From Rhina ancylostomus (Eukaryota): a DNA stretch of 64,000 nucleotides. Location: positions 40,674,661-40,738,660 of the forward strand of contig JARFYF010000017.1 in the NCBI GenBank assembly GCA_030265395.1. The letters are read 5' to 3'. Made by a program: the position numbers. This document shows, one piece after another, positions 1 through 47,190 of the stretch. The first letter of the stretch is position 1. Each line of letters begins with the position of its first letter.

Positions 1-3000
1 AGGTATAATGGTGGCAGATTTCAGACACTTAAGGACAACAGCCTGCTGCAAGGAGATGTTAACGATGTCTGCGAGGACATCTTTCAGCTGATCCGCACAA
101 TCCCTAAGTACCCGCCCCGGTATATTTTCTGTTCTTATTGCACTACTCCATGTCTTCCTCTGATAATGAACAGAGCTCCTCAAATCTTTAGTGGCCCACT
201 TGATCCTGGAGAGACTTTTATTCTGCAATAACACAGACAGGAGCAGTGATGAAGTTATAAAGAAGCCTATGAAGTCGCATCATCTTGCCCTGTCTGGTGC
301 GTTTACACAAAAAGGAATATCATAATGCAAAGAGAACTTAAAAAGTCGAGTTCCCTTCGATTAGCAAAGATGGTGAAGAGAGGTGGAGCTAAAATGGGGG
401 TGGATGTAAGTTAATGGAAGTACATTGTGGGTATACACATCCCAGTGGAGTACTGGAAGGCTGCAATACGGAACTATTCGAGTGCATCAGAAATCAATTA
501 ATGTGGGTTTTGAATTGCTTCTGCAAATGCAGCCTCCAGGAATGCAGCTAAAAATAATCTGCATGGACATTTTGTCTGTGCATTAGTAGTTCCAGGAAAG
601 ATTCAGTGATGCGATGGAAATGTCTCCTCCCAAAAAGTAACGATTAAACTGCTCTGGTCGCCCACCCCCACCATACCACAGAGCAAGTCATTAGAGTTTA
701 GAACAAATCAATTCAGGACAAGAACTCGACCAAATGTTTGCAGAGCTTAAGGTCAGATTTGTTCTGGTAGTGATATAGAAAATGCTGTGTTATTGTAGCA
801 AGAAAGAGCAGCAACAAGGGACCAAACTCTTCAGCTGACGCCCCTGTACATCTCAGTTCCCACTGGAAAGCCCCCAAAGGTACCATTTGGTGATTTTGTT
901 TTTGAATGAGACATGAAATCGAGGCCTGTGAGCATAGACTCCATTACAAGTATTAGCCTGGGATAGTCAGATGGGGTGCAAGGTCTTAAACTGACCCTCC
1001 AGCTCCAATTTCACACTGGGTTCAAATCTACACCCTACATCTCCATTTATGAGTTCAATCCCAACCCCAGCATTCATTTTATTCCAAAAATGATACATCC
1101 TCTCCACAGATTCCATCCCAAGTTCAACAACTATTCCGCCGACTGAAAGACCTAAACTAATTCTGCATCAAACCCCTCAAACACATCGTACAGCATTTCA
1201 CAGTCACTCGAGCCCAGATCTCTGGAGCTGTGAGGCAGCAACACCACCTGCTATGTCACCCTGGTTACAGCAAAGGGATTTTGATCTCGAGGAAGTGATT
1301 TGACAGAGGACAAAGTATTGGTGCACAGAGCTCAGAAGCAGAAGACATTCACCTCTCCCTTCTTGCCAATCTGCAAAAGGTTCTCACTAATGGGTGATAA
1401 ATCTTTCGGTTTTCTTTGTGCAGTTCTTCCCTGCCAGGCTGCTGAAAGTCACAATTTCCACTGTACTTCAGATGATGTTGAATTTTAACAGCATCTATGT
1501 CGCACAGTCAAACTACTGTTCATTTACACTTGGTTGCCCATCACACCACATTGCATTCACAAGATGAAGTGCACACTCAGGCCAACATCATCCCACTGAT
1601 TTCTTGTGGTCAAATGCTGGTAACAGTTAAAATCTCCATTGAGAAACAAGGAGACCTTGTTGCACAAAGTCCAAAGGTCGCTGAATGTGGCAGCGCAGGT
1701 AGACAGGGTGGTAAAGGAGACATGTGGGATGCCAGCCTTAATTAGCCAAGGCATAAAATAGAAGAACACAGGAGGTCATGGTACAATTTTATAAAACTTT
1801 GGCTGAGCCACAGCTGGAGTACGGCATGCAGTTCTGGTCACCACACTATAGAAAGAACGTGTTTGCACTGGAGAGGATGCAGAGAAGACTCGCTAGGACA
1901 TAGCCTGGGATGGAACGTTCCAGTTACAATGAGAGGCTGGATAGGGTGTGTTTGTTTTCCTTGGACTGAGAAGGCAGAGGGGACCTCATGTAGCGGTTAG
2001 CATAACGAAATTACAGTGCCAGCAACCCGGGTTCAATTCCAGCCGCTGTCTGTAAGGAGTTTGCACGTTCTCCCCTTGACTACGTGGGTTTCCTCCGGGT
2101 GCTTCGGCTTCCTCTGACATTCCAAAGACGTACGGGTTAGGAAGTTGTGGGCATGCTACGTTGGCGCCAGAAGTGTGGTGACACTTGCGGGCTGCCCCCA
2201 GAACACTACGCAAAAGATGCATTTCACTGTGTGTTTCGATGTACATGTGACTAATAAAGATCTTATCTTGCTTGCCTAGATGCTTCTTAAACACCATGAC
2301 CAGTATTTTCCTTTTGATAGTTGTGGTGGCATTTTCCGTGTTCTAACGAAGCACCCAGTGAAGAAACTCCTCGTGAATTTATGATTTGATTTCTATTTTA
2401 TTTATAACTGTTCAGTTTTGGACTGCCCACAGTAGGGCTAAGCTGGGAGATGTCTGACACCAAAAGAACATCCATTTCTGACACCAGTCAGCCTTTCAGA
2501 TTTTAGTGACAGCGGTGCTGTGCCAAGTCATGATAAGTTATGTCAGTACTGTTAGGACGGTTAGTAGACATTGAGTGAGATAGGCCACTGTCCTTTCCTT
2601 TGCTATTATTCCTGATATAAGATTAAATAGGCTCCCAAACCCACGAGGAACCATCAAAAATTTCCATCTTTATTACAGTACTAACCCAGTTCTTAGAGGG
2701 GAGGAAATAGGTCAGTTTCTAAGCTGCTAACATTTACTGTGTTGGTAGGAGTTATCTCCCGGGAACATGACAGGAGGAGAGTTTATGTCGGACTTCTATC
2801 AACAAGTGCAGATCTGTGGAATTTTGTTCCCTGGAGGGCGTGTGGTGCATTCTTAATCGAAATTTCTCCCACTTACTTCTCCGAGAGTTCTTTTGACAAG
2901 CCTGCTCAGATCCTGCCTCCACTCGGGAATGTCTGGGTTGTGATCTTCCAAGTTGGGCGTAAATGACAGGAGCAATGAGCGGTAGGAATCTGCAGGACCA

Positions 3001-45300: not shown

Positions 45301-47190
45301 AATATGTAAATGGCATCTTCAGAGTCCAAGTGGGAAAAGCCGAGTCAGAAGATTATCCCATTATGTAGAGCACTGTGGTTTAACTAATCCATTACTGTGA
45401 ATGCATTAGGATGCATAAAGAAATTCACCCCACTTCACTCCTCTGGTCAGCCCCGTACTGTAATGAGAATTTTACGCGAACATTGCCTACCTGGAGAGAG
45501 AGCCCAAATGGAAGGCTTTTCTATACTCCACCCCCCCCCCCCCAAAGCATGGGCACAATGGACTTCCGTCTACAATAAATTTCAGTAAATGGCTGCTAAC
45601 AGGCATCAACAGAAATCCCAAAGGCCATCATTAAATGTGTTTACATTTCAGGGGAAGGCAAGGACAAAAAAAAGCAAAGATTAAGCATGCACAATCCCCC
45701 GTCATTTAACCCTAGAGTGGAACTCACACACAGAGCACAGCTGGTTGTGCAGATATTTCACCGGGCTTGTTATCAAATGTGCTCATCGTAACCGGAGCAG
45801 CTGCCAAACATGCTCCAGCAGTTAAGGGATTTGGAGAAAAGTAGGTGTTATATTGGCGGGAAGAGTGACTGAACCCTAATGTTACCTTCCTGTCAGCGCT
45901 CTCAAGTGTCAGTAAATGAAGCTTGGCAAACACGTTTTAAGATGATGTCCTTTTAAATATGACGAAGGGGGGGGGGCGATACGTTTAGTTGTAAAAATAA
46001 AGAATTGAATCAAACGTGGATCAGAAGACACAACATTCCTTCAGTTTCCCCTCAAGGTCAACAGACCCACGGAATCATCTTTAAGTTCCAAACTACACTA
46101 ACAAGCCGTTGACTGGTTAAATTTGATTCACATTAAAAAAAAGCTTTGCATTCATATTTTCAGATTGCCGTGCGTCCCATTTCCCCGCCGCCAATGGAAT
46201 GCTGCTTAAGAATTCATCGGGCCAATCGGGACGCTGGCATTCAGTTCTATCTGCTGTACCTCCTGTACATCTAGATGAGCAGTTACTGTGGGCAATCGAT
46301 TACCAAGCACGCTGTGCACGCCGCTTTGCACCACGGAAACACGGCGGGCAGCTCCCCCGCGTCTGAACAAACTTCTACTTTGACTTTTGTTTGAAACGTT
46401 CCCACAATAAAGGGCCCGTTCTAGCCTCTCTAGTTGGAGAGTTGGTGGAAAGGTGGAAGGAGCTCCGTCCGAGCCGTTTTACTCACCCACCGCAGGTGCA
46501 TCGTATTCATCGCCCAGTAAGATCTCGGGCGCCGAGTAAGCCAGCGAGCCGCAGCTGGTGGTCAACATCTTGCCGGGTTGGAAACGGTTGCTGAACCCGA
46601 AGTCGGTCAGCTTGACGACCCCTTGCTCTTTGAAAAAGACCACGTTCTCTGGCTTCAGGTCGCGGTGCACCACATGCAACTTGTGGCAGTACGAGATGGC
46701 GTGCACGATCTGGGCGAAGTAGATCTTGGCTTGCTCCTCCGAGAGCCCCCTGTCGTGGTTCATGATGTAATCGAACATGTCTCCGCCGTCCCCCAGCTCC
46801 AGGATCAGGTACAGCTTGGTCTGGGTGTCGATCACCTCGTACAGCCTCACCACGTTGGGGTGTTGGACCAACTTCATGCACCGGACCTCCTGCAGCAGAT
46901 GGCCCGTGGCAGACTTGTCCAATTTGGTCTTGTCGATGACTTTGACGGCAACTTTCTCCCCGGTGAAGACGTGCCGGGCTAACCTGACCACGGCGTAGTG
47001 GCCCTTGCCCAGGGTCTTGTCCAGATCGTACAGCCCGGCGATCTTCCCGTCGCAGCATTGCCTTGGTCCTGCCATTGTCGGATGTGGTCCGCTCTCCCGC
47101 CGCACAGGCACGTCCCCCGCAGGTGGCTTCAACGGGCAGCGGGCTCCGGGACCTGCCGGGGCAGAAACGGCACCTCGGTCACCCTGCCCC

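What the first reader, a model, noticed from the sequence alone, without database searches (positions are those of the whole stretch)
2877..47075. SNRK-like kinase exon and SorCS receptor exon on the same strand, phase-compatible, with no other exons visible between them
Seen: the kinase exon ends in phase 1 (GTG G|gt). The next recognisable minus-strand exon, 43.5 kb downstream, is the SorCS exon, which starts in phase 1 with AT. Direct splicing gives GAT (Asp) and reads APAV-D-SYRSLLLSF in frame. By eye I found no DIWSLGVIL, HPWL or YNHITATY exons, and the ORF track shows no long SNRK terminal exon. I also found no upstream SorCS exons in 61 kb. Inference, alternatives: (a) a kinase gene nested in or interleaved with a SorCS gene on the same strand; (b) a chimeric truncated-kinase/SorCS C-terminal transcript from an internal CpG-island promoter; (c) missing exons hidden in the 100-N gaps at 4091, 19605, 35841 and 44843, or a mis-scaffold.
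[Added by the scan's program, not by the reader: the finding's places include an assembly gap (unread letters, written N; its length is only estimated) at 4091 to 4190, 6761 to 6827, 7736 to 7745, 8258 to 8287, 15808 to 15817, 19605 to 19704. Whether the letters on both sides are continuous or in frame is not known: test that first.]
Basis: partly seen in the sequence, partly recalled or inferred. Interest (0 to 1): 0.7.

Follow-up and report, generated by a model that had tools for sequence, protein, structure and literature searches.

The report
Neighbouring snrkb and SorCS1-like exons
The first coding exon of the kinase gene snrkb and one internal exon of a SorCS1-like receptor gene lie 43.5 kb apart on one strand of a gap-rich ray scaffold; both belong to ordinary, already annotated genes, and their matching reading phase is most likely coincidence, not a fusion gene.

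Summary
Exon 47075..46487 (-) encodes residues 1-196 of snrkb (SNF related kinase b). It is 99% identical to Hypanus sabinus snrkb and ends G|gtgagt in phase 1. Exon 2989..2877 (-) encodes residues about 910-946 of a cartilaginous-fish SorCS1-like receptor, 36 of 37 residues identical to Hemitrygon akajei. No other snrkb or SorCS exon is readable anywhere in the window on either strand.

The fusion reading has no support. All 29 SNRK-type relatives checked continue with their own next exon (DIWSLGVIL). All 5 SorCS1-like relatives precede the exon with their own upstream exon. None of the 120 best kinase hits carries SorCS sequence. Phase match is unspecific: 403 of 2,955 downstream AG sites are open in that phase.

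Ten gaps lie between the exons, four of them 100 N. Only one 100-N join is supported by overlapping flanks. Real same-strand interleaving, a scaffolding error and exons lost in gaps therefore cannot be separated here. The window is from a ray, not human. Interest is low.

The parts
46487..47075 (-). First coding exon of snrkb (SNF related kinase b). It runs from the ATG to residue 196 plus the first base of codon 197. The donor GT is at 46486-46485.
   Evidence: Sequence. Pfam Pkinase 1-176/263, E 1.2e-53. 194 of 196 residues identical to Hypanus sabinus snrkb P0002. Profile match of 482 bits covering profile positions 1-196 only.
2877..2989 (-). Internal exon of a SorCS1-like VPS10-domain receptor, residues about 910-946 of 1099 (membrane-proximal ectodomain). 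Phase 1 at its start, phase 0 at its end, with AG acceptor and GTAAGT donor.
   Evidence: Sequence. 97% identity to Leucoraja erinacea P0121 and Hemitrygon akajei P0122. Profile match of 70.6 bits. Weak match to mouse SorCS2 6ffy residues 848-878.
46001..48400 (.). The only CpG island of the window. It covers the kinase exon and about 1.3 kb upstream and is the likely snrkb promoter.
   Evidence: GC 0.55-0.63 and CpG observed/expected 0.65-0.96 here, against 0.1-0.5 elsewhere.
35841..35940 (.). A 100-N gap whose two flanks overlap, so the join and its orientation look real and the gap probably hides little or nothing.
   Evidence: The last 30 bases on the left match the first 30 on the right at 28 of 30 positions. 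0 of up to 5,000 random control cuts (those touching N were skipped uncounted) gave an overlap of 25 nt or more.
4091..4190 (.). A 100-N join of unknown length between the block holding the SorCS exon and the rest. Unverified.
   Evidence: No flank overlap and no bridging repeat copy.
19605..19704 (.). A 100-N join of unknown length. Unverified.
   Evidence: No flank overlap and no bridging repeat copy.
44843..44942 (.). A 100-N join of unknown length, 1.5 kb downstream of the kinase exon. Unverified.
   Evidence: No flank overlap and no bridging repeat copy.

Best explanation
These are two independent, ordinary genes seen through one exon each.

The kinase exon is the first coding exon of snrkb. 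It is driven by its own CpG-island promoter. In the transcript it is joined to the normal second snrkb exon (beginning DIWSLGVIL), which lies outside the readable part of the window. That implies a first intron longer than 46.5 kb, or an exon lost in an unsized gap.

The other exon is an internal exon of a SorCS1-like sorting-receptor gene. It is joined to its own upstream exon (ending ...AIF) and downstream exon (beginning VTALPEQ), neither of which is in the window.

Both natural junctions split an Asp codon as G|AT. That is why the kinase donor and the SorCS acceptor look made for each other. I read this as coincidence, not a functional fusion.

Shown here: exon identities, boundaries, phases, absence of companion exons, and the normal continuation in relatives. 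Inferred: that the two exons are not spliced together in this animal, and that the missing exons lie beyond the window.
For: - Exon identity: snrkb at 95-99% identity against 88-90% for SNRK; SorCS1-like at 97%.
- Canonical splice signals sit exactly where similarity to relatives ends.
- All 29 SNRK-type proteins checked continue with DIWSLGVIL: 28 after DAPAV and the lungfish protein P0012 after EAPSV. One of them, P0003, is a 727-aa protein on a 3,268-base contig, which must be an intron-less transcript contig.
- All 5 SorCS1-like proteins have their own upstream residues before this exon.
- No SorCS similarity at E<=1 in any of the 120 best kinase hits, and none of them carries a VPS10 or PKD Pfam domain.
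- 403 of 2,955 downstream AG sites are phase-compatible and open.
- The CpG island is confined to the kinase exon region.
- By inference, a product ending at Pkinase position 176 of 263 lacks the last third of the kinase fold. A SorCS part starting at residue 910 lacks the signal peptide, VPS10 and PKD domains.
Against: - As scaffolded, the two exons are on the same strand, with no exon of either gene between them. The splice is therefore physically possible and in frame.
- No RNA data for this animal could be consulted, so junction reads are neither shown nor excluded.
- The gene models of relatives are mostly automatic predictions guided by homology. Such models would tend not to report an unusual chimera.
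- The joined reading itself was deliberately not translated or searched.
Confidence: 0.85

Rival explanations
1. The scaffold is right and the two genes are truly interleaved on one strand. The snrkb promoter and first exon would sit inside a SorCS1-like intron of at least 61 kb. The last SorCS exons (residue 910 onward) would sit inside snrkb intron 1. The genes are still spliced separately. This is a statement about physical layout and is compatible with the best explanation.
For: - Both exons are intact, on the same strand, in one scaffold.
- No SorCS exon lies in 2990-64000 and no snrkb exon in 1-46486. This is exactly what interleaving with long introns predicts.
- One of the four 100-N joins between them is supported by a 28/30 flank overlap.
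- SorCS genes are very long with large introns (recalled from the human genes, not tested here).
Against: - Three 100-N joins (at 4091, 19605 and 44843) have no support at all.
- The readable block with the SorCS exon is only 4,090 bases inside the window.
- Same-strand interleaving of exons of two genes is uncommon (recalled).
- In the listings, snrkb and SorCS1-like sit on contigs of different length in related but not identical species: 85.9 Mb in Hypanus against 67.0 Mb in Hemitrygon, 82.2 Mb in Rhinoraja against 46.0 Mb in Leucoraja, and 85.0 Mb in Chiloscyllium punctatum against 59.4 Mb in C. plagiosum. This is only a hint, since no species appears in both lists.
Confidence: 0.35
2. The layout is a scaffolding artefact. 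A block (most simply 1-4090 and whatever lies to its left) has been misplaced or inverted at one of the unsized 100-N joins. The SorCS exon would then not really lie downstream of the snrkb exon on the same strand.
For: - Ten gaps lie between the exons, and four are the conventional 100 N for unknown length.
- For three of these there is no flank overlap and no repeat copy bridging them.
- The layout demanded by the scaffold, interleaved same-strand genes, is unusual.
- There is the contig-length hint from related species.
Against: - Nothing in the window positively shows a misjoin.
- One 100-N join is verified.
- The smaller gaps have estimated sizes, which suggests read-pair support (inference).
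Confidence: 0.45
3. The remaining snrkb exons, or upstream SorCS exons, lie between the two exons but are hidden in assembly gaps.
For: Three 100-N gaps are of unknown true length. Residues 197-721 of snrkb and 1-909 of SorCS1-like are absent from all readable sequence.
Against: - The missing snrkb part is 525 residues (1,575 coding bases, plus introns) and the missing SorCS part is 909 residues. Gaps would have to hide many kilobases without leaving a single exon in readable sequence.
- The seven gaps with estimated sizes of 10-67 N are too small.
- One 100-N gap is probably of zero length.
Confidence: 0.1
4. A real chimeric transcript runs from the CpG-island promoter. It would join the truncated kinase (residues 1-196) in frame to the SorCS membrane-proximal region, transmembrane helix and tail.
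For: Same strand, consensus donor and acceptor, compatible phase giving an Asp codon, and no intervening exon in readable sequence.
Against: - No relative shows such a model.
- Phase compatibility is shared by 403 other AG sites.
- The kinase part would stop at Pkinase position 176 of 263, so it would lack the C-terminal third of the fold.
- The SorCS part has no signal peptide, so its normally extracellular segment would have no route across the membrane (inference).
- Linkage of the two exons is itself unverified.
Confidence: 0.03

Closest known systems
snrkb (SNF related kinase b) of cartilaginous fishes, e.g. Hypanus sabinus P0002, 721 aa
   Same: Residues 1-196 are 194/196 identical, with the same start MAGPRQ and the same end at ...DAPAV.
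   Different: Residues 197-721 are not in the window, so only the first coding exon is seen.
SNRK (SNF-related serine/threonine-protein kinase), human kinase domain structure 5yks
   Same: Same AMPK-related kinase family. The exon aligns end to end at E 6e-115.
   Different: Identity to SNRK proteins is 88-90%, against 95-99% for the proteins named snrkb (93% for the unnamed S. torazame P0010). Narcine bancroftii and Heterodontus francisci have both genes on different contigs. This exon therefore belongs to the b paralogue.
SorCS1-like VPS10-domain receptor of cartilaginous fishes (Hemitrygon akajei P0122, Leucoraja erinacea P0121)
   Same: 36 of 37 whole codons are identical to residues about 910-946, between the PKD region and the transmembrane helix.
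   Different: Only this one exon is present. The clade is 61-70% identical to both SorCS1 and SorCS3 of bony vertebrates, so its orthology was not resolved here.
Mouse SorCS2 ectodomain structure 6ffy
   Same: A weak match places the exon in the membrane-proximal part, chain residues 848-878.
   Different: E is only 0.029. The exon is not a SorCS2 orthologue.
Nested or overlapping gene pairs in long vertebrate introns (general phenomenon, recalled)
   Same: If the scaffold is right, one gene's promoter lies within another gene's intron.
   Different: A classical nested gene lies wholly in one host intron. Here the kinase gene's other exons are not in that intron, so the layout would be interleaved, or is an artefact.

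Membership tests
snrkb / SNRK kinase family | Protein kinase catalytic domain of the SNRK type | tested here: met
   Pfam Pkinase E 1.2e-53. Best solved relative is SNRK at 385 bits, against 203 bits for the next (MARK1).
snrkb / SNRK kinase family | Closer to the b paralogue than to SNRK | tested here: met
   95-99% identity to seven proteins named snrkb, against 88-90% to the proteins named SNRK or SNRK-like among the 120 listed. No tree was built.
snrkb / SNRK kinase family | Complete gene: rest of the kinase domain and the C-terminal region | tested here: not met
   Residues 197-721 are absent from the readable window on both strands. The gene may continue outside the window.
SorCS subfamily of VPS10-domain receptors | Sequence match of the exon to SorCS proteins | tested here: met
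   All 5 database hits are SorCS1-like proteins, at 81-97% identity. tblastn scores 73-84 bits.
SorCS subfamily of VPS10-domain receptors | VPS10 propeller, PKD domains, transmembrane helix and tail encoded nearby | tested here: not met
   No other SorCS exon in 64 kb. The window may cover only one intron-exon stretch of a very long gene.
Fusion or chimeric gene | Transcript or annotated model joining the two parts | tested here: not met
   0 of the 120 best kinase hits carry SorCS sequence or VPS10/PKD Pfam domains. RNA reads of this species were not available. The joined reading was not searched.
Fusion or chimeric gene | Physical continuity of the DNA between the two exons | tested here: inconclusive
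   Ten gaps lie between the exons. One 100-N join is supported by a 28/30 overlap. Three 100-N joins are without evidence.
Nested gene in a host intron | Host-gene exons on both sides of the guest gene, with the guest complete inside one intron | tested here: not met
   No SorCS exon upstream of the kinase exon within the window, and no further snrkb exon between the two exons.

The most novel reading that the evidence does not exclude
In this ray lineage snrkb and the SorCS1-like gene really are interleaved on one strand. The snrkb promoter would then also produce an in-frame transcript joining kinase residues 1-196 to the membrane-proximal, transmembrane and cytoplasmic part of the receptor. 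That would be a membrane-anchored kinase fragment, or a regulated decoy of either gene.
Probability: 0.03. Interest if true: 0.5.

Novelty: already known. Interest (0 to 1): 0.12.

Why it matters
It matters little as biology. Both genes are already annotated in several rays, skates and sharks, and each exon behaves as expected for its gene.

The case is mainly a caution. In a draft scaffold with unsized gaps, two lone exons with matching phase do not make a fusion gene.

If a gap-free assembly showed that the same-strand interleaving is real, it would be a modest curiosity. It would be a kinase promoter embedded in the 3' part of a neuronal sorting-receptor gene, with possible transcriptional interference.

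Tried and rejected
- **Too-short query.** It was resent as a 40-codon window reference that runs three codons into the intron.
- **Chromosome comparison.** The listing of cluster members was meant to show whether snrkb and SorCS1-like share a chromosome in one species.
- **Contig lengths.** No species appears in both lists, so these give at most a hint.
- **Repeat copies bridging gaps.** Self-BLAST of the window found none. Exact flank repeats also found none. Only the mismatch-tolerant overlap test found something, at one gap.
- **Literature.** 'snrkb' occurs in 3 papers. I read one passage of PMC9239171, which concerns expression only. I saw the other two only as a search listing. None concerns gene order. 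The search 'snrkb' or 'sorcs' required only one of the two terms (1,823 papers); none of its 15 listed papers holds snrkb, and whether any paper holds both terms was not tested. Supplements are closed and might hold synteny tables.
- **Pfam on long open frames.** I scanned 116 of the 124 open frames of at least 80 aa. The 8 that contain N were dropped, and the kinase frame was excluded earlier because it runs through a gap. Only two weak matches appeared: DUF5917 at E 2e-4, and SAM_KIDINS220 at E 9e-4 and 19.5 bits, below its cut-off of 27. A first attempt was rejected because one reference contained stop codons.
- **Rfam.** No match.
- **SorCS tree.** I considered a tree of SorCS1, SorCS3 and the cartilaginous-fish clade but did not build it. 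Without a SorCS2 outgroup or a cartilaginous-fish SorCS3 among the fetched proteins, three clades give an uninformative unrooted tree.
- **Joined reading.** The joined kinase-SorCS reading was not translated, folded or searched. The exons were searched one by one.
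Full report
**What is in the sequence**

On the minus strand an ATG at 47075 (context gacaATGg) opens 196 codons that end at 46488. One further G at 46487 is followed by gtgagt, so the exon ends in phase 1.

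The second exon is preceded by ...tcctgcag. It starts with AT at 2989-2988, runs 37 whole codons to 2877, and is followed by gtaagt. It is 113 nt long, with phase 1 at its start and phase 0 at its end.

Neither exon contains N. The window has 16 gaps. Ten lie in the 43,497 bases between the exons, totalling 537 N. Four of these ten are exactly 100 N, at 4091, 19605, 35841 and 44843.

**Identity of the kinase exon**

The exon matches Pfam Pkinase positions 1-176 of 263 at E 1.2e-53. Among solved structures it is closest to human SNRK (5yks, E 6e-115, 385 bits). The next family, MARK1, scores 203 bits.

The large protein collection returned 1,611 proteins at E<=1e-40 among 8,000 scored candidates, with the best 120 listed. 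The best named hits are all 'SNF related kinase b':
- Hypanus sabinus, 99%
- Narcine bancroftii, 98%
- Heterodontus francisci, Rhinoraja longicauda, Carcharodon carcharias and Heptranchias perlo, 96% each
- Chiloscyllium punctatum, 95%

Proteins named SNRK reach 88-90%. Narcine and Heterodontus have both genes, on contigs of different length. The exon is therefore the first coding exon of the paralogue snrkb. The window comes from a cartilaginous fish, closest to stingrays among the species listed. It is not human.

**Identity of the second exon**

Against solved structures the only meaningful match is mouse SorCS2 (6ffy residues 848-878, E 0.029).

The exon alone was too short for the protein search. 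It was sent as a 40-codon window reference that runs three codons into the intron. It found 5 proteins among 12 candidates, all SorCS-type VPS10-domain receptors of cartilaginous fishes, three of them named 'SorCS1-like' (P0123 is listed as a hypothetical protein), at 97, 97, 87, 84 and 81% identity.

By tblastn the exon corresponds to residues about 910-946 of the 1,099-aa Hemitrygon akajei protein, with one difference in 37 whole codons. That places it between the PKD region and the transmembrane helix.

A search with the Hemitrygon protein shows a cartilaginous-fish clade at 79-87% identity. SorCS1 and SorCS3 of bony vertebrates are at 61-70%. I did not resolve its orthology.

**Are companion exons present?**

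No. The results were:
- tblastn with four snrkb proteins and one SNRK protein found only residues 1-196. The next best hit was 24.6 bits.
- tblastn with five SorCS1-like proteins found only this exon. The next best was 26.6 bits.
- Profiles built from 9 snrkb and 5 SorCS1-like proteins were searched with all filters off against 4,089 six-frame pieces of at least 8 aa. They gave 482 and 70.6 bits for the two exons. The next-best scores were 4.5 and 2.6 bits.

**Nothing else recognisable**

- Of 124 open frames of at least 80 aa, 116 were scanned against Pfam. The 8 containing N were dropped. Only two weak matches appeared, at E 2e-4 and 9e-4.
- Rfam gave no match.
- The only CpG island lies at about 46.0-48.4 kb. 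It covers the kinase exon and 1.3 kb upstream, as expected for the promoter and first exon of a gene.

**Does the phase match mean anything?**

Three lines of evidence say no.
- All 29 SNRK-type proteins inspected (P0002-P0030) continue after residue 196 with DIWSLGVIL. Of these, 28 follow DAPAV. The lungfish protein P0012 follows EAPSV.
- One close relative, P0003 (98% identical, 727 aa), sits on a 3,268-base contig. That can only be a spliced transcript.
- All 5 SorCS1-like proteins precede the exon with their own residues...SIA(I/V)F-D.

Both natural junctions split an Asp codon as G|AT. That explains why the kinase donor and the SorCS acceptor fit each other so well.

None of the 120 kinase hits has SorCS similarity at E<=1 or a VPS10 or PKD Pfam domain.

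As a control, 403 of the 2,955 AG sites downstream of the donor on that strand are open for at least 37 codons when entered in phase 1.

I searched the spliced model exon by exon. The joined kinase-SorCS reading was not translated, folded or searched.

By inference a chimera would be poorly formed. The kinase part stops two thirds of the way through the fold. The receptor part lacks its signal peptide and all ligand-binding domains.

**Are the two exons really linked?**

This could be tested only in part. At the gap 35841-35940, the last 30 bases on the left and the first 30 on the right agree at 28 of 30 positions. None of up to 5,000 random control cuts (those touching N were skipped uncounted) gave an overlap of 25 nt or more. 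That join and its orientation therefore look real, and the gap probably hides nothing.

For the other fifteen gaps I found no flank overlap and no repeat copy elsewhere in the window that bridges them. These include the three 100-N joins at 4091, 19605 and 44843. By convention 100 N marks a gap of unknown length (established practice, not a call).

The readable block that holds the SorCS exon is only 4,090 bases inside the window.

**What the layout would imply**

If the scaffold is right, SorCS residues 1-909 must be encoded beyond 64000 and snrkb residues 197-721 below position 1. The snrkb promoter and first exon would then lie in a SorCS intron of at least 61 kb. The SorCS 3' exons would lie in snrkb intron 1, which would be longer than 46.5 kb. 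This is a same-strand interleaving, which is unusual (recalled).

The alternatives are a misplaced or inverted block at one of the unverified joins, or exons lost in unsized gaps. The last is the least likely. It would need many kilobases hidden without a single exon left in readable sequence.

I could not compare with other assemblies:
- No eukaryotic genome or read collection is reachable with these tools.
- Supplements of papers are closed.
- The three papers that mention snrkb do not, as far as I saw them, concern gene order. Two I saw only as a search listing. Of the third I read one passage. The search for snrkb or sorcs required only one of the two terms; none of its 15 listed papers holds snrkb, and co-occurrence in a single paper was not tested.

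The listings do show snrkb and SorCS1-like on contigs of different length in related species pairs:
- Hypanus 85.9 Mb against Hemitrygon 67.0 Mb
- Rhinoraja 82.2 Mb against Leucoraja 46.0 Mb
- Chiloscyllium punctatum 85.0 Mb against C. plagiosum 59.4 Mb

No species occurs in both lists, so this is a hint at most.

**Verdict**

The exons are ordinary parts of two known genes. The chimeric reading is unsupported and improbable, at about 3%.

Whether the genes are truly interleaved (about 35%), brought together by a scaffolding error (about 45%), or separated from their partners by unsized gaps (about 10%) cannot be decided from this window.

Interest is low.

Noticed in passing
window 35841-35940: The flanks of this 100-N gap overlap at 28 of 30 positions. 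The two contig ends probably overlap, differing at two positions, perhaps through heterozygosity, and the gap is spurious.
   Followed up: yes
window 47192-47237: A dinucleotide (AC/GT) microsatellite of 23 units lies about 120 bases upstream of the snrkb start codon, inside the CpG island and the likely 5' untranslated region. A 111-N gap follows at 47397-47507.
   Followed up: no
window 37069-37189 and 57017-57152: Two perfect (100% match) tandem duplications, of 59 bases x 2.1 and 68 bases x 2.0. They could be very recent duplications or assembly artefacts.
   Followed up: no
window 1-279 (-), 3949-4090 (+), 18425-18760 (+), 58794-59297 (-): These open frames look, from memory, like decayed retrotransposon (LINE or LTR element) reading frames. 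Pfam gave no significant match, so this is unconfirmed.
   Followed up: partly
proteins P0121 and P0122: The Leucoraja and Hemitrygon SorCS1-like models have different cytoplasmic tails after the transmembrane helix. This suggests alternative 3' exons, as is known (recalled) for SorCS1.
   Followed up: no
listing: snrkb-like proteins at about 90% identity are also listed for caecilians, salamanders and a lungfish, named 'SNRK-like'. No amniote entry in the list scores above the SNRK level. The b paralogue may have been lost in amniotes. No tree was made.
   Followed up: no
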